A stretch of 10,679 bases of DNA from a virus (lineage: Duplodnaviria; Heunggongvirae; Uroviricota; Caudoviricetes), in the IMG/VR virus record IMGVR_UViG_2648501186_000016, one strand, 5' to 3'. Below the pieces are notes generated by a model. It saw nothing but the letters and a program-made list of their open reading frames with translations, was not told the DNA's origin and did no database searches. This document shows, piece by piece, positions 797 to 10,679 of this stretch; the first letter of the stretch is position 1, and every line of letters begins with the position of its first letter. The position numbers were made by a program, and so were the translations under genes.

Positions 797-1624
797 TCAG
801 GCGGCTGCACCCGCCGGTTTCTCATACTTACTGATAGTGATCTCGACCTTCCCTTTCGGGATAACCGGTCCCCACTCCACCAGCATTCTTTTCACCTGTC
901 TGTCGTCTTCCCACACACCCGCGTGGGTCAGGGCGTCAAACAGCGCCTTGTTATAGTTGTCCAGATCGCGGATCCGGTTACCCATCGCAGATACCCAGCC
1001 CGCATAGCGTTTCACACCTTCCAGCATGGTTTCGGGGTTTACCCCCTCATTCAAACGGGCTTTCCAGGCTTTGAAGGCTGCAGATTTTGAATTGCCACCA
1101 GCACGTTTGGGATATGCCAGCCATGCCTGCTCAAACTCCGGAGAGTATTCCGGTCGGTTTGAACGAACTCGCACAGACTCATCAGCAGATGCACCAACAG
1201 CTATTGGTTCATTGACTGGTTCTTTGACTGGTTCAAAAGAGTGACTGGTTCTGGGTGAATCTCCTGCATTACCCCCTGGTGCAACTCCTGCACTACCTGG
1301 TGAATTTGCTGCACCAGATAGTGAATTATTTGCACTACCCCCTAGTGAATCTCCTGCACCATCCAGATGAAGGAGATAGATATTACTTGAGTTACCTTTT
1401 TCACCTTTCCGGGTGACTTTTTTTACCAGCCCGGACTCACAAAGGGCCGCAATATGATTCATCACAGAACGTTTGCTAATCTCGCACTGGTCAGCAATAT
1501 GCTGGTAGCTGGGCCAGCACTCACCCTGATCGCTGGCATTATCAGCCAGCTTGATCAGAACCAGTTTTCGCAATGGATTACCCACTCGAATTTTCATCGC
1601 TTTAACCATCAGCGCCATACTCAT
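797..1624 (-). CDS. Phage replication initiator-like protein (N-terminal winged-helix DNA-binding domain, low-complexity linker, C-terminal domain), lambda O-like architecture
   Basis: 275-aa ORF, ATG at 1624 with GGAGG 6 nt upstream and ATGA overlap with the preceding ORF. N-terminus LRKLVLIKLADNASDQGECWPSYQHIADQCEISKRSVMNHIAALCESGLVKK looks like a wHTH replication-protein domain; the middle is a Gly/Ser/Ala/Pro-rich linker. Product assignment is by pattern recall, not search. Confidence 0.65.
   Translation of the reverse strand: MSMALMVKAMKIRVGNPLRKLVLIKLADNASDQGECWPSYQHIADQCEISKRSVMNHIAALCESGLVKKVTRKGEKGNSSNIYLLHLDGAGDSLGGSANNSLSGAANSPGSAGVAPGGNAGDSPRTSHSFEPVKEPVNEPIAVGASADESVRVRSNRPEYSPEFEQAWLAYPKRAGGNSKSAAFKAWKARLNEGVNPETMLEGVKRYAGWVSAMGNRIRDLDNYNKALFDALTHAGVWEDDRQVKRMLVEWGPVIPKGKVEITISKYEKPAGAAA
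1203..1349. repeat. Iteron-like direct repeats inside the linker-coding part of the O-like gene (candidate ori)
   Basis: TGACTGGTTC at 1213-1222, 1225-1234 and 1242-1251; GTGAATCTCCTGCA at 1255-1268 and 1335-1348; related GTGAAT...TGCAC units at about 1299-1314 and 1320-1335, giving a roughly 21-23 bp period. Confidence 0.5.
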
Positions 1625-1845: not shown

Positions 1846-2993
1846 TTGCGCCCCCTTACCTCTGAAGGGTTCAGCGACAAATTTATGAGGCAGGCCAGTG
1901 CCGAAGCATCATTAATATAGTCATACAAGCTAACAGCCAGCGGAGATTCGGCTTTTGCCAACATAGGATAAAGCTGCTGCAGCCAGACCTGATGAATTGA
2001 TGAAATGTAGGAACAGAGAACGCTGGCGTTATGTGCAACGTCGCTCGGTACAGCGGGCTTTGAAAGCTGTTTCTCCATCTGGTTAAAGGCATTGATGTAT
2101 GCCTCTTTGAACTGGGCAGCACGTTTACCCGTGAAACCCATAGCAAGAAACGCAAAGCCGTCGCGGGTTATTTGATAGCAAGGTAGTTTGCGGCCTGTGC
2201 AATCGGTGTAATCACTCACCGAAAAATTGCGGGCAGTGAATGATGCGGAACATTCAAGCGTGCGGATCTTTTTCAGTACATCGTCATGACGTTTGGAGAA
2301 GAAGTTGGCAACAGCCAGGGATGAAGTAACAGCCTGACCATCAACGATGGCAATTTCAGGTTGAGTGAGGGTTGGGATCGTAGCCATGATGGCAGCCTCT
2401 TTGGTGATTTTTAATAACTCACCACCAAGGCTTTCCACGACCTTATTGGTGGTGAGACGTACAGGGGTGGAAATACCGGTCACCAAAGAACCCGGCCCAA
2501 CCGAAGTTGGCCCTGCACGCCCCACCATAATTTGGGCGTAATGCTGCTCATGACACAAAAAAACCGCAAGAGCGCGGTTGTGCGCTTTGGTGAATTCCGG
2601 GTTTCCACGCCCGGCACCCGCTTTATAAGGTGCCTGAACAGTGTAACGTCCCGGAATGGCAGAATCAATGTGCTGGTGGTCCTTCACACTCAACAAAATC
2701 ACGCCTGAATTTCCACAAAGGACTAAAGCATTCATGCGGGTAGTCTTTGCGAAGATAGATAACGCGCTGTGTTTCTGGCTCCCAACGAATAACATGAACA
2801 TAAAGTCCTCTTCCGTCACGAAACCAGCGGTTAAGTTCCTGCACAACTCGCCCCCCACAGTCAGGTAAAGTTCTCTGTGGTTACTAACAGCCAGGTGATT
2901 TGGTAATCTGCATTCATGCCGTAACAACAGGTGTGCAGCGACACTGACCACCAGCTGTTGCGACAAACGGTTATTTGCCGTTAAACTGTTCAT
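1842..2993 (-). CDS. Rha-family phage regulatory protein with about 200-aa N-terminal extension of unknown function (alternative start at 2387 would give a 181-aa Rha-only protein)
   Basis: 383-aa ORF, ATG at 2993 overlapping the upstream TGA (ATGA). Residues about 215-300 (IVDGQAVTSSLAVANFFSKRHDDVLKKIRTL...ITRDGFAFLAMGFTGKRAAQFKEAYINAFNQMEKQL) match the Phage_pRha pattern. Internal ATG at 2387..2385 has AAAGAGG 8 nt upstream. Confidence 0.55.
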   Translation of the reverse strand: MNSLTANNRLSQQLVVSVAAHLLLRHECRLPNHLAVSNHRELYLTVGGELCRNLTAGFVTEEDFMFMLFVGSQKHSALSIFAKTTRMNALVLCGNSGVILLSVKDHQHIDSAIPGRYTVQAPYKAGAGRGNPEFTKAHNRALAVFLCHEQHYAQIMVGRAGPTSVGPGSLVTGISTPVRLTTNKVVESLGGELLKITKEAAIMATIPTLTQPEIAIVDGQAVTSSLAVANFFSKRHDDVLKKIRTLECSASFTARNFSVSDYTDCTGRKLPCYQITRDGFAFLAMGFTGKRAAQFKEAYINAFNQMEKQLSKPAVPSDVAHNASVLCSYISSIHQVWLQQLYPMLAKAESPLAVSLYDYINDASALACLINLSLNPSEVRGRK

Positions 2994-3541
2994 GCGTTAG
3001 TTTCTCCACAGACACAAAACGCCACGACGCCCGGAGCTGCACACTCGCGGGCGTCACTCTTTTCTGGAGCGCAGAAAATTTTGTAGACCAGTGCCGCATG
3101 CTCCTGGAGCTTCGAAATTGACAGATACAATTCATCATTAATTGCTGTCTGCTCGTGTGGCTCCACTACCCCATCTTCGATTGCCGAACGAATCTGCTTT
3201 GAGTAACTCCCGATCTGTTCGATGACTTCCAGCAGGCGCTGGTTTATATCTGCGTTCTCTACTTCCTCAATTTCAGGAAGCGATACAAACACCCCACCAG
3301 CAGACTGTGCGACAGCATCCGCAATGTAGTGAGTGCCAGCAGCACGCTGTAAAATCATTGCCCATCCCAGCGGGAAAATCTGATCGCCATCTGCACGAAG
3401 GCGGTTGAATAAAGCGTTCTCTGTAACATCCAGCCACTCAGCAGCTTCAGCGTAACCCCCCGGCAACGCCGCGATAGTTTTTCTGACAGCTTTCACGTAC
3501 CACTCAGGCTGTTTTTCCACTTTCCAGTGATGATTACCCAC
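2990..3541 (-). CDS. YdaT-like / CII-analogue regulatory protein (putative)
   Basis: 183-aa ORF directly downstream of the Cro-like gene, overlapping its end by 8 nt. Start is GTG at 3541..3539 with AGGAGG 6 nt upstream. Position and size fit the ydaS-ydaT type pair of Rac-like prophages; family assignment is from memory. Confidence 0.55.
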   Translation of the reverse strand: MGNHHWKVEKQPEWYVKAVRKTIAALPGGYAEAAEWLDVTENALFNRLRADGDQIFPLGWAMILQRAAGTHYIADAVAQSAGGVFVSLPEIEEVENADINQRLLEVIEQIGSYSKQIRSAIEDGVVEPHEQTAINDELYLSISKLQEHAALVYKIFCAPEKSDARECAAPGVVAFCVCGETNA

Positions 3542-3794
3542 GGCTTACCTCCTGTTCCTGTGGTTTAAACCCATTCTGGTTTTGGCTAGATTGAAAACGT
3601 GCCGGATAAAGAATCTGCATTTCGCTGATTTCACCCTTAAAAAAATTGGCCAGACGTTCTGCAAGATCGATAGATGGAATTTGTTCCAGTCTTTCAATAC
3701 GACTCAGCGTCGCTGGATTGACCTGAACGCCAGCAGCAACATGCTGCAAAGTAAATCCGTGCGCCTTACGCACATTCCGTAATGGTGATTGCAT
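3534..3794 (-). CDS. Cro-like XRE-family HTH regulator
   Basis: 86-aa ORF divergent from the repressor gene; HTH segment FTLQHVAAGVQVNPATLSRIERLE; ATG at 3794 with GGAGG just upstream. Confidence 0.7.
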   Translation of the reverse strand: MQSPLRNVRKAHGFTLQHVAAGVQVNPATLSRIERLEQIPSIDLAERLANFFKGEISEMQILYPARFQSSQNQNGFKPQEQEVSRG

Positions 3795-3805
3795 ATGACC
3801 TCCAC

Positions 3806-3885
3806 ATATTGCGTGATGAGCATATTATTTCACGCAAATATTTTGCGCAAGTTGATTTGCTTAACGCGCAATAAAGAAATGTAAT
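3806..3885. promoter_or_regulatory. Divergent PR-like / PRM-like promoters with operator palindromes (OR-like region)
   Basis: Minus strand: -35 TTGCGC (plus 3850..3845), 17-bp spacer, -10 TAATAT (plus 3827..3822). Plus strand: -35 TTGCTT 3857-3862, 17-bp spacer, -10 TGTAAT 3880-3885, placing the start about at A3892 of the repressor ATG (leaderless). Operator-like motifs: TTGC-N7-GCAA at 3857-3871, variant at 3809-3823, palindrome TTGCGCAA at 3843-3850, inverted repeat 3806-3841. Confidence 0.5.
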
Positions 3886-3891
3886 AAACGC

Positions 3892-4584
3892 ATGAACATA
3901 GGAAACCGAGTCAGACAACTTCGCCAGGCGAAGAACATGAAAATCGCCGATCTCGCTGAAGCAATAGGAGTGGATGCGGCGAATATCTCACGCCTGGAAA
4001 CAGGTAAGCAGAAACAATTCACTGAACAAGCCCTGAGTAATATTGCCAAGAGCTTAGGTGTTGATATTGCTGATCTCTTTACCTCAGACTTCAAAAGTAA
4101 TACTGTATGTAAAAACAGTATTAGTGAGGATGTTGCGCAGGTGAAGGATGTATTCCGTATTGAAATGCTGGATGTCAGTGCCAGTGCGGGAAATGGCCTT
4201 ATCCAGGGCGGTGATGTCATTGATGTGATTCATGCCATTGAATACAGAACTGATAATGCTGTATCGATGTTTGGTGGACGGCCAGCCAATCACATTAAAG
4301 TTATCAACGTTCGTGGGGACAGTATGTGTCCAACCATTGAGCCAGGAGATCTCATCTTCGTTGATGTCAGTATCAATCAGTTTGATGGAGATGGTATCTA
4401 TGTATTTGGTTTTGATGATAAAATTTATGTCAAACGACTGCAAATGATACCTGACAAACTACTGGTGATTTCTGATAACCAGATTTACCGTGAATGGGGA
4501 ATTACCAGCGAAAATGAACACCGGTTTATGGTCTTTGGAAAGGTCTTAATCAGCCAGTCACAAACCCTTAAGCGACACAATTAA
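3892..4584 (+). CDS. cI/LexA-type prophage repressor (N-terminal XRE HTH, C-terminal S24 peptidase autocleavage domain)
   Basis: 230-aa ORF. N-terminus NRVRQLRQAKNMKIADLAEAIGVDAANISRLETGK is an HTH; C-terminus has the Ser-Lys dyad context VRGDSMCPTIEPGDLIFVD ... YVKRLQ typical of S24 peptidases. No SD before the ATG, consistent with a leaderless transcript. Confidence 0.85.
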   Translation: MNIGNRVRQLRQAKNMKIADLAEAIGVDAANISRLETGKQKQFTEQALSNIAKSLGVDIADLFTSDFKSNTVCKNSISEDVAQVKDVFRIEMLDVSASAGNGLIQGGDVIDVIHAIEYRTDNAVSMFGGRPANHIKVINVRGDSMCPTIEPGDLIFVDVSINQFDGDGIYVFGFDDKIYVKRLQMIPDKLLVISDNQIYREWGITSENEHRFMVFGKVLISQSQTLKRHN

Positions 4585-4604
4585 CCCTTACCTCCTCATC
4601 AATT

Positions 4605-4626
4605 AGCCACCCAAAGGTGGCTTTTC
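4605..4626 (+). terminator. Intrinsic terminator downstream of the repressor gene
   Basis: Perfect 7-bp stem AGCCACC (4605-4611) / GGTGGCT (4616-4622) with CAAA loop, followed by TTTT, 21 nt after the repressor stop. Confidence 0.6.
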
Positions 4627-4639
4627 ATTACCCTTTAAA

Positions 4640-4692
4640 TTGCATATCTCGCAACAAAAACACTTGCATAATGCGCAACTTCATTTTATCTT
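4640..4692 (+). promoter_or_regulatory. PL-like promoter with two operator sites (OL-like)
   Basis: Two 15-bp palindromes TTGCATATCTCGCAA (4640-4654) and TTGCATAATGCGCAA (4664-4678) share the TTGC-N7-GCAA pattern seen in the OR region. Candidate -35 TTGCAT (4664-4669), 17-bp spacer, -10 TATCTT (4687-4692), reading toward the yfdP-like operon. Confidence 0.45.
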
Positions 4693-5102
4693 TCTTTCCA
4701 GACAAACAAACAAGGTACTAACAAAATTTGGTTGTAACACGGCGTATGGCACATGCGTCGTTAGCGGTCTGGGGACGTTAAAGGGGACAATCCACTCCTT
4801 GCTCGGGCAAACAAACCAGGTAGCCGGAATGTGCAAGTCAATGATGATGCTGATAAGACGCCTAACCAGCGTGGCGATTCGGTTTGACGCCTGGGAAGAG
4901 ACCAGGGTGCAACGATGAGGGCATTTATGGAGCCGCGACAAAGTGTGGTGCCGTAACTGGCTAAGTGCTCTCAGCGTTGTGGTAATCCGCGAAATGGCGC
5001 GGCGGTAAGTATGGCGGGGTTACTCTTTCCCCGTTGAGGACACCGGATTGTCAGGTTGACCATACGCCTGAGTGACAACCCCACCACAACAGCCACTGCT
5101 TT

Positions 5103-5152
5103 GGCGGTACCAGTTTGTACCCTTGCTTCCGGCTGGTACCGCTCTTTTTACA
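5103..5152 (+). terminator. Hairpin plus T-run in the early-left leader (terminator-like; 3' flank is boxA-like)
   Basis: 10-bp stem GCGGTACCAG (5104-5113) / CTGGTACCGC (5133-5142), 19-nt loop, followed by TCTTTTTA. The segment CGCTCTTTTTACAA (5140-5153) resembles the boxA consensus of nut sites and rrn antiterminators. Confidence 0.4.
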
Positions 5153-5286
5153 AAACAGAGAAGAGCATCACCGGACGACGGGCTCATAACCCAATCCATC
5201 CGGGCGGCTGCCACCGCAGGTGTTCTTCTCCGTTTTGTGGAGAAACCAACCGACCTTGCAGGGTCGATATGATGAGGAGCAGCAAA

Positions 5287-5649
5287 ATGGCTAGCGAACG
5301 CAGTACTGATGTGCAGGCATTTATTGGGGAGCTGGACGGCGGCGTATTTGAAACCAAAATCGGCGCAGTTCTCAGTGAAGTCGCTTCCGGTGTGATGAAC
5401 ACGAAAACCAAAGGTAAGGTCTCGCTCAACCTGGAAATCGAACCGTTTGATGAGAATCGTGTGAAAATCAAACACAAACTCTCGTATGTTCGCCCGACTA
5501 ACCGCGGGAAAATTTCCGAAGAAGACACCACCGAAACGCCGATGTATGTCAATCGCGGTGGTCGCCTGACTATTCTGCAGGAAGACCAGGGACAATTACT
5601 GACTCTTGCTGGTGAACCTGACGGAAAACTCCGCGCAGCAGGTCATTAA
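5287..5649 (+). CDS. yfdP: YfdP-like hypothetical protein (120 aa)
   Basis: ATG at 5287 with AGGAG at 5275-5279; the track's longer 5056 frame starts at TTG and lacks an RBS. Length and position before the YfdQ/YfdR-like genes match K-12 CPS-53 yfdP from memory; symbol is tentative. Confidence 0.55.
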   Translation: MASERSTDVQAFIGELDGGVFETKIGAVLSEVASGVMNTKTKGKVSLNLEIEPFDENRVKIKHKLSYVRPTNRGKISEEDTTETPMYVNRGGRLTILQEDQGQLLTLAGEPDGKLRAAGH

Positions 5650-7432: not shown

Positions 7433-8164
7433 CATTTATTTGTTTCGATGTTAGCTGACACATCTATGGCACAGAGCAAAACCGAATATGATTGTCCACT
7501 CTGTGCTAGTAGAAAACATAGATATCAACTATCCGTACCAATCTATGAGTATAGAATAAATTAATCTGCTCGCAACTAATAGCCTCTAACAGCCAATACA
7601 GTGCCACCGATGATACAAAAAACAATACTCCAAAAAGCGTCTGGTATTGGATTGTCATTACTAGCTTCCGAGGTGAGATATGCATTAAGCCAGGTGCGCT
7701 GGAAAAGTTATGTTTCCCTAATGGAATTGCCCATGACTCAACATATTTTTTCTCTGTTGCTAGCGAATAGACCTAAAATGATAAGCACCATTAACATCAA
7801 CAGCGCCCCCTTGAGCTCTTCTTTTCGGTGAAAAGCCCATCATCAACGGCGCATTGCCTAACCCGAATTCTAGCCACCTTAGCCAGTATTTACCCCCTAG
7901 ATACCAAATGCTTACCCCTCTATTTGCTCTGATAATACTTTATTGCATAATCCCTCACTACATTAGACACTGCGTCAATCCTGCCTTCTATAGCTTGTTT
8001 TAACGCTTTCGGCACATTCCTCTGAACCAGCCCAAGATATGGCTGTTAAATTTTTACTTACATTCAAAAAAACTTTAACTTTTGCAATCAGATCATATGA
8101 TGTTGTTAATGGTAATATTCTGAATCTAAAATGACTTAAGAGTTCGTAGGTTAGAGGGACATGT

Positions 8165-9184
8165 ATGACTTCTGAAAGCAACAGAATTGGGAAGATGGGT
8201 GTAAACTACATAGAAGGTGTATTGACAAGATGGGGATGGGGATATCAATCAATTTCGCAAGAAAATGATGATGGGTTTGATGGCTTAATATATATAAGAT
8301 CTAAACGATTTGAGGCGAAAGATAAAGAAAACCGGAGTAAACAATCTTGGGAGTTCACTGGTGGGTTGATTCATGTACAAGTAAAAAGTGGAGATACATA
8401 CATTAGTAGTCGTAATAAAGATGAAATAAGGATCAAAATAAAAAACCTCAATGAAAAGAAGAAAATATGGTCTAGATCGTCTATTCCATGCATACTTGTA
8501 TTTGTTTTTTGGGATCATAATGAAGTTGAGTATTCCTACTGGGCTGATCTTAAATCTGAATTAACTTATTGTGATAACAGTAGTACGCTAATAAAAATCC
8601 CCTTAAAAAATAGATTTATGAGATCCCAAGAGTGTAAGGGGCCTTTAAGACGACTTGCAAGGGTATCGGCCAACTATGCAGATAAGCCGCTGATAGATTT
8701 ATCAAAATTTGACTCATTAAGTGGTAAGCTACCTACAAGTCTAAACAGTAACCTAAATTGTTCTTTGAAAAAGAAAGGTATTGAATTCTATCAGAAATGG
8801 CGATTAATTGGGGCTACAAACCCTTATTTTGGTCCTGTTCTAATAAACAGAACTGGTTGGAGTCATATAACTCGACGAAATCGCCCAATAGCAAGAATTG
8901 AAGCAAGCTTTAATTTGTTACCTTTAGCAGCAAGAATTATAAATGATGTATCTACATGGCGAATGTTAACACCCGTACGACGGTATGATAATAGAAAGGA
9001 TGGTTATGTTTGCTTTATAGATTTCGTTGGGTTAACAGCCAAAGTGAATTTAAAGAATCGCAACTCATCAGAAGTTATGGTTGTGTTAAAAAGGGAGAGG
9101 AGGTATAAACAGGGTGAAGACTGTTCCTCTGCGAAAACAAGATTATGGTTTTACACTGTTTATGAACCTGGAAGAGGAAAATAA
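8165..9184 (+). CDS. Cargo protein with N-terminal Mrr/DUF4365-like PD-(D/E)xK nuclease-fold domain and uncharacterised C-terminal domain; candidate anti-phage defense or Abi effector
   Basis: 339-aa ORF, ATG at 8165 with AGAGGG 6 nt upstream. N-terminus IGKMGVNYIEGVLTRWGWGYQSISQENDDGFDGLIYI...GGLIHVQVKSGDTYI...IPCILVFVFWDHNEVEYSYWADL fits the DUF4365/Mrr pattern (G-rich start, GW, D-x-GxDG, QxK, hydrophobic strand plus YW). Gene is about 32% GC in two hand-counted 60-bp samples versus about 50% in flanks. Confidence 0.75.
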   Translation: MTSESNRIGKMGVNYIEGVLTRWGWGYQSISQENDDGFDGLIYIRSKRFEAKDKENRSKQSWEFTGGLIHVQVKSGDTYISSRNKDEIRIKIKNLNEKKKIWSRSSIPCILVFVFWDHNEVEYSYWADLKSELTYCDNSSTLIKIPLKNRFMRSQECKGPLRRLARVSANYADKPLIDLSKFDSLSGKLPTSLNSNLNCSLKKKGIEFYQKWRLIGATNPYFGPVLINRTGWSHITRRNRPIARIEASFNLLPLAARIINDVSTWRMLTPVRRYDNRKDGYVCFIDFVGLTAKVNLKNRNSSEVMVVLKRERRYKQGEDCSSAKTRLWFYTVYEPGRGK

Positions 9185-9393
9185 ATTGAGGCGGTACAAT
9201 CGCGCTCAGGCTGTCCCAGACGTGATGCATAACACCACCGGTTCCAGAATTTAAGGATCTGGACCTTCAATTATGCGTGTACCGCCTTATGCAACAATAC
9301 TATAAAATTATTAAACGTCAAGATGTTCAATAAGATTTGGGCTTTCATGCCACAACACGAAAGTTCATTTTATAACGTCTAAAGCTTTCACAA

Positions 9394-9455: not shown

Positions 9456-10679
9456 TCAGTTAGAGTCTGAGATAGTACAAGTAATGATCGATTCAACTCT
9501 CTCCCACCATGCCTGGTAGGCTTTACGCTGTTCTTCTAGATAATCGCTCTTATCATAAACTTGCCATACCCCTGGCAGTTTATGGCCGAGCATTATTTCT
9601 GCAATATGAGGCGCAGTAAGATCAGAAAAGTTTGTTCGTGCTGTTCGCCTCAAATCATGAAGAGACCAATGAGGGAATTGATACCCCAAACGCCGCCATG
9701 CGTACTGCATTAAATTGTAAGGCAGCGACTGCAATGATGTTCGTCCAACGGGTTCCCTGCTTCCTTCCTTAGTAAAAAGCATATCGGAACCATTGTTCAT
9801 AGAGATAACGTACTTTATAAGCTCTTCAACCGGTTCAATAATGGGGCGCTTTAGCGGTTCGCCTGTTATATCCCCTGTCTTATGTCGTTCTGGCGGTACA
9901 GTCCATACCTTATTAATGAAATCAAAATCATCCACCCTAGCGGTAATTAGCTCTGAACTACGGCAGCCAAAATGCAGCAATAGTTTAATGAAGGCCCGGT
10001 ATTTAGGAACCATTCGAGAACCATCGATCGCAGCATAAAGGATTTTAATTTCATCATGTGTCAGAAACCGTTTCTTCTGACCTTTACGGATATCCATATC
10101 TTTACCCGTGATATCCGACAGCGGGCGGGTTTCAATGAGCTTTCTCTTATAGGCCCAGACATGGGCCTGCTTTGCGTTAATTAGCAATCGGTCTGCTATT
10201 GCTGGAGTCTTAGTGCTAAGAGGCTCTAAGACTTCTAACCAATCATGCAATGTAGCTGCATCGTGAGGGATACTCCCGATTTTAGAGAACAGGTGCAGCT
10301 CAAACGAGCGGAGTATCTGTTCAGAACCTTTTTTATTTTTTACACAATATGCTTCATACCAGGCACGGATCACAGACTCTACCGTCATGGCTTCAGTAGC
10401 TTTTCGTTTTTCAGCCTGCTTGACCAATCGTGGATTACGGTTTGACTCGAGTTCACCACGAAGACGGAGAACTTCTTCTCTGGCCTCTTTTAATCCAGTT
10501 GCCGGGTAAGTTCCGATATCAAGACGCTCACCTTTCCCTGCCCATTGATAACGATATTGGAACACTACGCGACCTTTCGGTGATACTCTGACAGACAGAC
10601 CATCACGATCGGATTTAACCAAAACCTTATCACGTTCCTTTCCAACGACTGAACGCAACCACGCATCAGACAGCGCCAT
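9456..10679 (-). CDS. Tyrosine-type site-specific integrase, P4/CP4-57-like family
   Basis: 407-aa ORF whose ATG is the last three bases of the window. N-terminus MALSDAWLRSVVGKERDKVLVKSDRDGLSVRVSPKGRVVFQYRYQWAGKGERLDIGTYP resembles the arm-binding domain of P4-type integrases; C-terminus carries the recombinase signature (R in GCRSSEL, HDLRRTART, LGHK, Y in VYDKSDY). Confidence 0.9.
   Translation of the reverse strand: MALSDAWLRSVVGKERDKVLVKSDRDGLSVRVSPKGRVVFQYRYQWAGKGERLDIGTYPATGLKEAREEVLRLRGELESNRNPRLVKQAEKRKATEAMTVESVIRAWYEAYCVKNKKGSEQILRSFELHLFSKIGSIPHDAATLHDWLEVLEPLSTKTPAIADRLLINAKQAHVWAYKRKLIETRPLSDITGKDMDIRKGQKKRFLTHDEIKILYAAIDGSRMVPKYRAFIKLLLHFGCRSSELITARVDDFDFINKVWTVPPERHKTGDITGEPLKRPIIEPVEELIKYVISMNNGSDMLFTKEGSREPVGRTSLQSLPYNLMQYAWRRLGYQFPHWSLHDLRRTARTNFSDLTAPHIAEIMLGHKLPGVWQVYDKSDYLEEQRKAYQAWWERVESIITCTISDSN

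What the first reader, a model, noticed from the sequence alone, without database searches (positions are those of the whole stretch)
4627..5286. Long structured leader before the yfdP-like operon with a boxA-like sequence on a terminator-like hairpin
About 650 bp separate the repressor terminator from the first early-left gene, with no convincing ORF. The segment 4930-5280 is GC-rich and contains several short inverted repeats, including a 10-bp stem (5104-5142) followed by CGCTCTTTTTACAA, which resembles boxA of nut sites. This could be a terminator overridden by antitermination, a nut-like or put-like RNA element, or a small RNA. No Arg-rich N-like protein is evident.
Basis: partly seen in the sequence, partly recalled or inferred. 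Interest (0 to 1): 0.5.

Follow-up and report, generated by a model that had tools for sequence, protein, structure and literature searches.

The report
Modular structured phage leader RNA
The 660-base gap in front of the yfdP operon is not a nut/boxA site but a chain of conserved, folded RNA modules ending in a terminator hairpin that sits exactly where the known prophage small RNA DicF sits in E. coli K-12, and none of these modules is annotated or in Rfam although one of them occurs in about four out of five E. coli genomes.

Summary
660 nt of non-coding DNA separate the repressor terminator from yfdP (ATG 5287), and an 11-bp stem (5103-5113/5133-5143) precedes a U5 run.

The boxA reading fails. 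It is an 8-mer at chance frequency, half buried in the stem, and replaced in relatives that keep the hairpin.

The leader is a mosaic of conserved RNA modules on the + strand:
- Module A (4737-4913) has five helices with compensatory changes. It also occurs in P1/P7 and epsilon15-like phages.
- Module B (4976-5090) is a four-way junction, about 90% identical to the K-12 Qin sequence just upstream of dicF. It occupies the slot that holds tRNA-Arg(UCU) in sibling phages.
- Hairpin T shares its base with the DicF terminator but lacks the DicF 5' seed, and fails the Rfam DicF model.
- Module D (5150-5238) is a long helix.

72 of 73 distinct module-B loci are followed by such a hairpin plus U run, of at least 12 types. 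Models of A and B do not hit HK022 put.

Most likely this is a processed early-left leader whose terminator yields a DicF-like RNA, with read-through expressing yfdPQR. The functions of A and B are unknown.

The parts
4605..4626 (+). Intrinsic terminator of the cI-like repressor gene (3892-4584)
   Evidence: Terminator scan: 7-bp stem AGCCACC/GGTGGCT followed by a T run.
4640..4678 (+). Two perfect operator-like dyads TTGC-N7-GCAA (4640-4654 and 4664-4678). I take these as putative OL sites, with the early-left promoter (PL) in or just after them.
   Evidence: The same dyad occurs at 3857 (perfect) and 3809 (1 mismatch) between the cI-like and cro-like genes. The promoter itself is inferred and was not found by the consensus scan.
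4737..4913 (+). Module A, a conserved promoter-proximal structured RNA. Helices: H1 4740-4748/4752-4760; H3 base 4769-4772/4816-4819 with a variable apex; an invariant strand 4819-4837; H4 4837-4839/4873-4875; H5 4858-4861/4869-4872 with a CUAACCA loop; H6 4890-4894/4902-4906 with a GAAGAGA loop.
   Evidence: Covariance model R2 scores 149.8 bits at 4737-4913. On a plain MAFFT alignment of 24 diverse copies, 95.5% of cells pair against 85.8% when shuffled. Ten pairs change on both sides, and 51 cells do so against 14.4 shuffled (0/500); slid controls give 1-4. There is no Rfam match.
4917..4972 (+). Connector helix P0 (GAGGGCA 4917-4923 with UGCUCUC 4966-4972) with a variable apical insert
   Evidence: Present in the MFE fold. 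The same flanks, GAGAGCAUU..AGUGCUCUC, enclose unrelated inserts in other phages, for example T-arm-like hairpins in SPN1S, Erwinia and Izhakiella. This was judged by eye and no formal covariation count was made.
4976..5090 (+). Module B, a four-way-junction RNA in the 'tRNA slot'. Helices: P1 4976-4983/5083-5090; P2 CCGCG/CGCGG; P3 CGGU..ACCG with apex GGCGGGG/CCCCGUU; P4 UUGUCAGG..CC..UGACAA.
   Evidence: About 90% identical to K-12 Qin DNA immediately 5' of dicF. Model R1 scores 151 bits at 4971-5101. 93.9% of cells pair, and 13 pairs change on both sides against 6.6+-1.6 shuffled (0/500); slid controls give 2-5 (on an alignment fitted to the model). P1 begins exactly where the acceptor stem of tRNA-Arg(UCU) begins in phiV10, SPN1S and BUCT711.
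5091..5102 (+). Single-stranded linker AGCCACUGCUUU. It replaces the 5' seed of DicF, which is missing here through a 19-nt gap relative to Qin.
   Evidence: Pairwise and multiple alignments.
5103..5149 (+). Hairpin T plus U5, an intrinsic-terminator-like stem-loop.
   Evidence: Free energy -21.5 kcal/mol, z = -3.2. UUUGGCGGUA.CAGUUU and the ..CCGC.CUUUUUA base are shared with DicF. 72 of 73 distinct module-B loci carry such a hairpin plus T run downstream. The Rfam DicF model does not match.
5150..5238 (+). Module D, a long irregular helix closed by ACAAAAC (5150-5156) and GUUUUGU (5232-5238)
   Evidence: Free energy -50.2 kcal/mol for 5150-5290, z = -2.96. RNAalifold keeps the helix over 28 sequences, with two-sided changes (CAGAG/CUCUG against CACAC/GUGUG in L217) and no codon-phase bias.
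5251..5289 (+). Small hairpin (5251-5266), Shine-Dalgarno GAGGAG (5274-5279) and the yfdP start codon (5287-5289)
   Evidence: Sequence, fold, and yfdP matches phrog_204 at 1e-49.

Best explanation
Interval 4627-5286 is the untranslated leader of the prophage's repressor-controlled early-left (PL-type) operon. It is built from independently folding, evolutionarily conserved RNA modules: A, connector P0, B, hairpin T and D.

Proposed sequence of events once the cI-like repressor leaves the operators at 4640-4678:
1. RNA polymerase transcribes A, P0 and B, then meets hairpin T (5103-5143 plus U5).
2. T acts as a leaky intrinsic terminator, as shown experimentally for its homologue DicF in the Qin dicBF operon.
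3. Terminated transcripts give a stable non-coding RNA. Its 3' end (linker, T and the U tail, about 50-60 nt) is a DicF-like, probably Hfq-type small RNA with its own seed.
4. Read-through transcripts carry module D and express yfdP-yfdQ-yfdR.
5. Module B is a tRNA-sized four-way junction closed by an acceptor-like stem, placed where sibling phages carry tRNA-Arg(UCU). It most likely serves as a folding and processing module that sets the 5' end of the downstream small RNA. RNase E cuts just 3' of it in Qin.

The CGCTCTTT 'boxA' is a by-product of the stem's 3' arm plus the U tract.

Shown here: homology, architecture, RNA structure conservation and terminator-like anatomy.
Inferred: promoter position, termination and read-through, processing, and any trans-acting role.
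For: Immunity-region layout:
- cI-like repressor, terminator, repeated operator dyads, then the yfdP operon.

Relation to DicF:
- Module B is about 90% identical to the sequence 5' of dicF in K-12, and T aligns with the DicF hairpin.
- The module-B-then-hairpin-plus-U-run arrangement is found in 72 of 73 distinct loci. These include the P1/P7 Pban leader, Citrobacter, Erwinia, Trabulsiella, Izhakiella and Serratia symbiotica.
- DicF biogenesis by termination plus RNase E and RNase III processing is documented (PMC9438474 and PMC5069750, read).

RNA structure:
- Compensatory changes support modules A, B and D.
- Conserved G.U pairs fix the + strand as the transcribed strand.
- T is much more stable than shuffles.

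tRNA slot:
- Among 114 distinct module-A loci, about 33 carry tRNA-Arg(tct) in the slot, about 24 carry module B, and at least 25 carry other payloads closed by GTTGTGG..CCACAAC.

Non-coding status.
Against: - There are no transcript data. The promoter is inferred, and the sigma-70 consensus scan listed nothing at 4640-4700.
- T has a large 19-nt loop and only five U, so termination efficiency is unknown. The simple terminator scan did not list it.
- The window RNA lacks the DicF 5' seed, and its single-stranded 5' part is at most 12 nt. A trans-acting role is therefore less certain than for DicF.
- Module B is not recognised as a tRNA by ARAGORN or by the Rfam tRNA model. It has a 4-nt spacer between P4 and P1 that tRNAs lack.
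- Some copies (L005, L020, L064) lack the 5' strand of P1.
- The module B covariation count was made on an alignment fitted to the model.
Confidence: 0.6

Rival explanations
1. Module A and/or module B is a cis-acting, protein-independent processive antiterminator RNA, working like HK022 put. It would modify RNA polymerase so that it reads through hairpin T and later terminators, in a prophage that has no N-like gene.
For: - No N-like ORF lies between the operators and yfdP.
- Module A is promoter-proximal. In several phages it starts within a few nt of a predicted -10 element (by eye), as putL does (PMC9378689).
- In P1/P7, module B sits directly after Op(ban)/Pban and in front of a terminator.
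- Modules are always followed by terminators that must be passed to reach the downstream genes.
- There are short sequence resemblances to putL: ACGGCG..CAUGCGUCG..AGCG, and GCGCGGCGG.
Against: - Models R1 and R2 find nothing in the HK022 immunity region at E<=1 and E<=5.
- The architecture differs: 175-nt five-helix and 115-nt four-way-junction modules, against two stems of about 70 nt.
- Module A also occurs after tRNA-Ile, far from Pban, in P1/P7.
- In one IMG/VR phage (L209) module A lies upstream of a perfect boxA, UGCUCUUUAACAA, which suggests it coexists with N-type antitermination.
- Module B's slot is interchangeable with a tRNA.
Confidence: 0.15
2. Hairpin T plus CGCTCTTTTTACAA is a nut-like site (boxB plus boxA) for N/Nus-dependent antitermination.
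For: CGCUCUUU matches the 8-nt boxA core. BoxA is recognised as 8 nt by NusB-NusE, according to the abstract of PMC3177189 listed.
Against: - The 8-mer occurs at chance frequency: 2 observed against 1.39 expected.
- The 12-nt boxA is absent at up to 2 mismatches.
- Four of the eight bases are paired in the stem.
- The order is hairpin-then-boxA, the reverse of lambda nut, and the stem of 11 bp with a 19-nt loop is unlike boxB (my knowledge of lambda nut).
- The motif is not conserved: SfV has CCGTCC, and Citrobacter, L217 and L212 have CGCCC or CGACC, with the hairpin retained.
- There is no N-like gene.
Confidence: 0.03
3. The conserved blocks are not functional RNAs. They are recombination 'linker' sequences and decayed tRNA-island remnants, carried along by mosaic exchange among temperate phages. 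T would be simply a terminator or insulator.
For: - Sharp mosaic boundaries: different phages share different sub-blocks.
- Some copies are truncated inside module B (L005, L020, L064).
- T-arm-like fragments appear in some inserts.
Against: - Compensatory base changes preserve helices in A, B and D across genera.
- Loops and junction strands are invariant while helices vary.
- Module B is retained in 4261 of 5426 complete E. coli genomes, with up to 8 copies per genome.
Confidence: 0.12
4. A small protein or leader peptide is encoded across T and module D (ORF 5072-5272, phrog_33599). Its translation would control termination or yfdP expression.
For: - PHROG hit at 4.7e-15.
- In the Erwinia, Izhakiella, Trabulsiella and S. 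symbiotica variants the hairpin apex carries AGGAG plus AUG UUC UAC CG, in the same frame.
Against: - No ATG and no SD for this frame in the window.
- The frame and stop positions differ among the four variants: 11 aa, 21 aa and longer (by eye).
- There is no third-position bias, with 16/21/16 variable columns by codon phase.
- No Pfam hit.
Confidence: 0.04

Closest known systems
DicF sRNA and the dicBF operon of the Qin prophage (Rfam RF00039)
   Same: - The genomic place is the same: the early operon downstream of the immunity repressor of a lambdoid prophage.
- The upstream module B is the same, at about 90% identity.
- The hairpin base (UUUGGCGGUA.CAGUUU ... CCGC.CUUUUUA) and the U run are shared.
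- Genes downstream need read-through.
   Different: - The 19 nt carrying the DicF 5' seed (UUUCUGGUGAC) are absent.
- The apical half of the hairpin is unrelated.
- The RF00039 model gives no hit even at E<=10.
- Targets, if there are any, must differ.
HK022 putL/putR antiterminator RNAs
   Same: Both are promoter-proximal structured RNA in the early operon of an N-less lambdoid phage, upstream of terminators.
   Different: - No detectable sequence or structure homology.
- Size and helix number differ.
- Module A also occurs in non-promoter-proximal and non-lambdoid contexts.
Lambda-type nut sites (boxA-boxB)
   Same: An 8-nt CGCUCUUU string lies next to a hairpin in the early-left leader.
   Different: The order is reversed, the string is buried in the stem, the hairpin is unlike boxB, the string is not conserved, and there is no N gene.
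Phage tRNA genes and tRNA-linked non-coding RNAs. Examples are tRNA-Arg(UCU) of epsilon15-like phages and the P1 ban-operon tRNAs. From memory, GOLLD and ROOL large RNAs also sit next to phage tRNAs.
   Same: - Module B is tRNA-sized, is a four-way junction closed by an acceptor-like stem, and occupies the slot of tRNA-Arg downstream of module A.
- Modules A and B lie in the tRNA-bearing ban operon of P1/P7.
   Different: - Module B is not recognised as a tRNA.
- Its arm lengths, loops and a 4-nt spacer differ from tRNA.
- There is no Rfam match to GOLLD, ROOL or any other family.
Prophage anti-sRNAs AgvB and AsxR of EHEC
   Same: The principle is similar: families of short prophage RNAs with a conserved terminator part and a variable part, at conserved prophage positions (PMC4104026).
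   Different: Those lie downstream of PR' at the late moron site and vary in the 5' end. Here the site is the early-left leader and the hairpin apex or 5' linker varies.

Membership tests
DicF (Rfam RF00039) | Scores at or above the family gathering threshold (48 bits) with the Rfam covariance model | tested here: not met
   No DicF hit in the window at the gathering threshold, nor at E<=10 in 4550-5350. Positive controls score 76.7 bits in K-12 Qin and 76.4 bits in phage Evi.
DicF (Rfam RF00039) | 5' single-stranded seed UUUCUGGUGAC | tested here: not met
   There is a 19-nt gap in the window relative to Qin at exactly this segment.
DicF (Rfam RF00039) | Terminator stem-loop plus U run, located downstream of the conserved module B in the early operon of a lambdoid prophage | tested here: met
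   The alignment shows a shared hairpin base and U run. The context matches. 72 of 73 loci show the arrangement.
DicF (Rfam RF00039) | RNase E-generated 5' end, Hfq binding, and repression of ftsZ and other mRNAs | not testable with these tools
   This needs Northern blots, 5'-end mapping, Hfq co-immunoprecipitation and reporter assays.
Lambda-type nut site | boxA (about 8-12 nt) located 5' of a short boxB hairpin, single-stranded, and conserved among related phages | tested here: not met
   Only an 8-mer is present, at chance frequency. It lies 3' of the hairpin and inside its stem. It is replaced by CGTCC, CGCCC or CGACC in relatives.
Lambda-type nut site | A cognate N-like (Arg-rich) protein gene immediately downstream | tested here: not met
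   No such ORF exists between 4627 and 5286. YfdP is not Arg-rich and has no Pfam hit.
HK022 put RNA | Sequence and structure similarity to putL/putR (two stem-loops, about 70 nt) | tested here: not met
   Models R1 and R2 do not hit HK022 loci L007 or L008. The alignment with putL/putR shows only scattered identities. A put-based model was not built, because only two put sequences were in hand.
HK022 put RNA | Factor-independent antitermination through the beta' zinc-binding domain | not testable with these tools
   This needs in vitro transcription and rpoC mutants.
tRNA | Recognised by ARAGORN or by the Rfam tRNA model (cloverleaf with canonical D, anticodon and T arms) | tested here: not met
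   ARAGORN finds 0 genes in the window. There is no tRNA hit at E<=10.
tRNA-like element (functional analogy only) | A four-way junction closed by an acceptor-like stem, in the genomic slot of a genuine tRNA | tested here: met
   Slot equivalence with tRNA-Arg(tct) is shown.
Intrinsic (Rho-independent) terminator | A stable GC-rich stem immediately followed by a U run | tested here: met
   The stem has 11 bp, free energy -21.5 kcal/mol, z = -3.2, and is followed by C plus U5. The simple scan missed it because its loop limit is 8 nt. Actual termination was not tested.

The most novel reading that the evidence does not exclude
The leader may belong to an undescribed modular system of non-coding RNA 'cassettes' shared by lambdoid, P1-like and epsilon15-like enterobacterial phages.

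Its proposed layout is:
- a conserved structured RNA of about 175 nt (module A);
- a connector helix;
- a slot closed by GUUGUGG/CCACAAC that holds either a real tRNA-Arg(UCU) or one of several tRNA-sized structured RNAs, of which module B is one;
- a DicF-type terminator with a hypervariable apex.

On this reading DicF, studied for over 35 years, is only the variable 3' tail of a larger conserved RNA. That RNA is present in about 79% of E. coli genomes. Its tRNA-like partner (module B) and 5' domain (module A) would have functions of their own: tRNA-type processing, decoying anticodon nucleases or other defences, or modifying RNA polymerase.
Probability: 0.4. Interest if true: 0.8.

Novelty: new variant of a known kind. 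Interest (0 to 1): 0.6.

Why it matters
DicF is the textbook prophage-encoded small RNA, yet the conserved structured RNA directly upstream of it is unannotated and has no Rfam family. That RNA is module B, found in 4261 of 5426 complete E. coli genomes.

This window shows the same scaffold carrying a different, seed-less hairpin. It sits behind a second conserved RNA, module A, that is shared with P1/P7 and epsilon15-like phages. Module B occupies a slot that is interchangeable with a tRNA.

If these modules direct processing, stability or read-through, three consequences follow:
- They would explain how DicF-type RNAs are made.
- They would explain how N-less prophages express early-left genes past a terminator.
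- They would define new RNA families for annotating phages and prophages.

For the narrow finding, the result corrects a tempting mis-annotation, boxA/nut.

Tried and rejected
- Rfam: gathering threshold on the whole window, and E<=10 on 4550-5350. Nothing relevant turned up in the leader; only C4 and isrK were found, elsewhere in the window.
- tRNA search of the window: none found.
- boxA/nut reading: rejected on significance, position and conservation.
- put homology: the putL/putR sequences were taken from HK022, aligned and folded, and searched with models R1 and R2. No relation was detected. King et al. 2011 (put-like RNAs) and Faubladier & Bouche 1994 (dicF-like prophage sequences) are not held in the library. 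I therefore could not check whether they already describe module B or A.
- Protein-coding readings of the gap: rejected.
- An alternative long-range fold of module A, with GCACAU pairing AUGUGC, was proposed by RNAalifold. I set it aside because the H1 pair at columns 8/20 covaries without exception as G-C or A-U (16 and 8 of the 24 sequences; the same by eye in the 26), while the rival helix is invariant and so uninformative.
- An alternative fold of the 3' half of module B from RNAalifold is not excluded. The P7 double change U-A to C-G favours the P4 helix I used.
- Full-text searches for the module sequences, and for 'tRNA-like' together with DicF, found nothing.
- Target prediction for the hairpin RNA was not attempted.
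Full report
**Setting.** The window is an E. coli lambdoid prophage. The 706 nt around the finding are 100% identical to O55:H7 CB9615 and many other genomes.

The layout is:
- a cro-like gene (3534-3794, minus strand);
- a cI-like XRE/S24 repressor (3892-4584, plus strand), followed by a terminator-like hairpin at 4605-4622;
- yfdP (ATG 5287), yfdQ and yfdR.

RefSeq annotates nothing between the repressor and yfdP. Two perfect dyads TTGC-N7-GCAA lie at 4640 and 4664. The same dyad occurs at 3857 and, with one mismatch, at 3809 in the cI/cro intergenic region. I read 4640-4678 as OL, with the early-left promoter in or just after it. This is an inference, because the consensus promoter scan listed nothing there.

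**Checking the observation.**
- The gap of about 660 nt is real.
- The mechanical ORFs in the gap have no Pfam hit.
- The 66-aa ORF 5072-5272 matches one PHROG of unknown function. Across 28 homologous sequences the variable columns fall 16/21/16 over the three codon phases, and the region keeps a long helix instead. I therefore treat it as non-coding.
- The hairpin exists: 5103-5113 pairs with 5133-5143, the loop is 19 nt, and C plus U5 follows. Its free energy is -21.5 kcal/mol, z = -3.2, with 0 of 200 shuffles as stable.

**The boxA idea.**
- CGCTCTTT (5140-5147) is an 8-mer. Its first four bases are the end of the stem's 3' arm.
- YGCTCTTW occurs twice in the window against 1.39 expected.
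- The 12-nt boxA GCTCTTTAACAA has no match at up to 2 mismatches.
- In phage SfV the otherwise identical hairpin ends in CCGTCCTTTTT.
- In Citrobacter, L212, L217 and L245 it ends in CGCCC or CGACC.

**What the hairpin is.** BLAST showed that the leader is a mosaic.
- Window 4976-5098 is about 90% identical to a unique place in K-12, which lies between ydfC and dicB in Qin.
- Rfam places DicF at L004 4133-4184, directly after that match.
- Alignment shows that the window lacks 19 nt carrying the DicF 5' seed. It then shares UUUGGCGGUA(C/U)CAGUUU. It diverges in the apical half with compensating arms, and shares ..CCGC(U/C)CUUUUUA again.
- The hairpin is therefore the positional homologue of the DicF terminator stem-loop.
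- It is not a DicF family member. The Rfam model gives no hit even at E<=10, although it scores 76 bits on the controls.

For DicF itself, termination at this hairpin, RNase E cleavage at the 5' end and RNase III cleavage of read-through transcripts are documented (PMC9438474; PMC5069750).

**Module B.** I collected copies from three sources:
- IMG/VR, pattern CAGGTTGACCATACGC: 120 loci, of which 90 are distinct;
- species-representative genomes, using a two-block pattern: 15 loci, including Citrobacter, Trabulsiella, Erwinia tracheiphila, Izhakiella and Serratia symbiotica;
- P7/P1, where a copy lies directly after the C1 operator Op(ban) and is followed by a classical terminator.

I proposed a four-way junction (P1 closing stem, P2, P3 with an apex, P4) and built model R1. 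It scores 151 bits at 4971-5101 and about 100 bits on the P1/P7 copies.

On the resulting alignment 93.9% of cells pair. Thirteen pairs change on both sides, against 6.6+-1.6 in shuffles (0/500) and 2-5 in slid controls. The caveat is that this alignment is fitted to the model. Examples visible in the raw sequences are:
- P3 base CGGU/ACCG against CGGC/GCCG;
- P4 UUGUCA/UGACAA against UUGCCA/UGGCAA;
- apex GGCGGGG/CCCCGUU against CUGGGG/CUCCAG, CCAGGUG/CACCUG and CAGGGG/CUCCUG.

Three copies (L005, L020, L064) lack the 5' strand of P1. Of 73 distinct loci, 72 have a stable hairpin plus T run within about 150 nt downstream. Forty-five of these carry the DicF seed and 27 do not, and there are at least 12 hairpin types. 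Module B occurs in 4261 of 5426 complete E. coli genomes, with up to 8 copies per genome, and is never annotated.

**Module A.** Window 4737-4913 matches unannotated DNA in two other phage groups:
- In P1/P7 it lies between tRNA-Ile and ban.
- In epsilon15-like phages (phiV10, SPN1S, PAT1, Klebsiella BUCT711) it lies in an oppositely oriented insert between the terminase and portal genes.

A second IMG/VR scan gave 114 distinct loci. On a plain MAFFT alignment of 24 diverse copies, five helices that I specified pair in 95.5% of cells against 85.8% when shuffled. Ten pairs change on both sides, and 51 cells do so against 14.4 (0/500); slid controls give 1-4. Model R2 scores 149.8 bits at 4737-4913. 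Invariant G.U pairs show that the + strand is the RNA strand. Module A occurs in 1375 of 5426 E. coli genomes, including 255 places on plasmids.

**The tRNA slot.** In phiV10, SPN1S and BUCT711 the sequence is identical to the window through ..AGUGCUCUCAGCGUUGUGG. It then continues as tRNA-Arg(UCU), whose acceptor stem is GUGGCAU/AUGCCAC. In the window it continues as module B, whose P1 is GUUGUGGU/ACCACAAC.

The slot contents among the 114 module-A loci are:
- about 33 carry tRNA-Arg(tct);
- about 24 carry module B;
- at least 25 carry other inserts of 71-145 nt closed by GTTGTGG..CCACAAC.

SfV has one of these other payloads in front of the same hairpin as the window. A related one, closed by UUUUGUGAUG..CAUCACAAAA, follows DicF in Qin (by eye). 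Module B is not a tRNA by ARAGORN or Rfam.

**Module D.** Window 5150-5238 is a long helix (z = -2.96) that is kept through two-sided changes.

**put.** I extracted putL and putR from HK022. Short resemblances exist, but R1 and R2 find nothing in HK022. Homology is not supported. A put-like function remains possible and is my main rival, at about 0.15.

**Mechanism I commit to.** This is a processed, modular early-left leader.
- Hairpin T is a leaky terminator. It gives a DicF-like RNA with a seed of its own.
- Read-through transcripts express yfdPQR.
- Module B acts as a tRNA-like folding and processing module.
- Module A is a conserved 5' domain of unknown role.

Anatomy, homology and structure conservation are shown here. 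Transcription start, termination, processing and any trans-acting role are inferred.

**Novelty.** The flagged hairpin is a new variant of a known kind, a DicF-type terminator or small RNA. Modules A and B and the slot architecture have no Rfam family. Full-text searches for their sequences, or for a tRNA-like element together with DicF, found nothing. Two relevant older papers could not be read, so prior partial description cannot be excluded.

Noticed in passing
window 2445-2633 (- strand): There are Rfam hits to C4 antisense RNA (2445-2532, 83.6 bits) and isrK (2557-2633, 67 bits). Both lie inside the mechanical 383-aa ORF 1842-2993. This suggests a P1/P7 immI-like or Gifsy isrK-type RNA-controlled antirepressor module in this lambdoid prophage.
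   Followed up: no
L002 (phage P7) 137-300 and 2512-2694: The C1-controlled ban operon of P1/P7 has an unannotated module B copy right after Op(ban), followed by the terminator GCCCATCTTCGGGTGGGCGTTTTTT. It also has an unannotated module A copy between tRNA-Ile and ban.
   Followed up: partly
L146 about 4665-4735, L147, L144 and L137 (Erwinia, Izhakiella, Trabulsiella, Serratia symbiotica): In these genera the terminator hairpin after module B has an apex of about 60 nt containing AGGAG plus AUG UUC UAC CG. This is a mini-ORF running into the 3' arm and the U run. Its length and frame differ between species: 11 aa, 21 aa and longer.
   Followed up: partly
L004 (K-12 Qin) about 4186-4350, and L250 (SfV) 1659-1781: Another stem-closed module (GUGAAUGCGGCU.AGCGCACGCGG...) follows DicF in Qin and precedes the window-type hairpin in SfV. 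The reported RNase III-generated 72-nt DicF 3' end would fall in its closing stem. This is an inference from the coordinates.
   Followed up: no
L209, roughly 130-170 nt downstream of the match at 3234-3252: In this IMG/VR phage, module A is followed by a hairpin and a perfect boxA, TGCTCTTTAACAA. Module A can therefore coexist with an N/nut-type site.
   Followed up: no
window 5072-5272: phrog_33599 (unknown function) matches this ORF at 4.7e-15. However, the substitution pattern is non-coding and the region forms a conserved helix. The PHROG may be built from mis-called ORFs over structured RNA.
   Followed up: partly
window 797-1624 (- strand): By eye, the 275-aa ORF joins an N-terminal replication or HTH-like part to a RusA-like C-terminus. 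In CB9615 several separate genes lie between these parts (HTH protein, yfdN, methyltransferase, LexA-like, RusA). This suggests a deletion in this prophage. It was not tested.
   Followed up: no
window 7900-9250: A low-GC segment (0.30-0.37) with a 339-aa ORF (8165-9184) lies next to the integrase gene (9456-10679, minus strand). In CB9615 the equivalent position holds the defence gene dsr1, so this is probably a variable cargo or defence slot.
   Followed up: no
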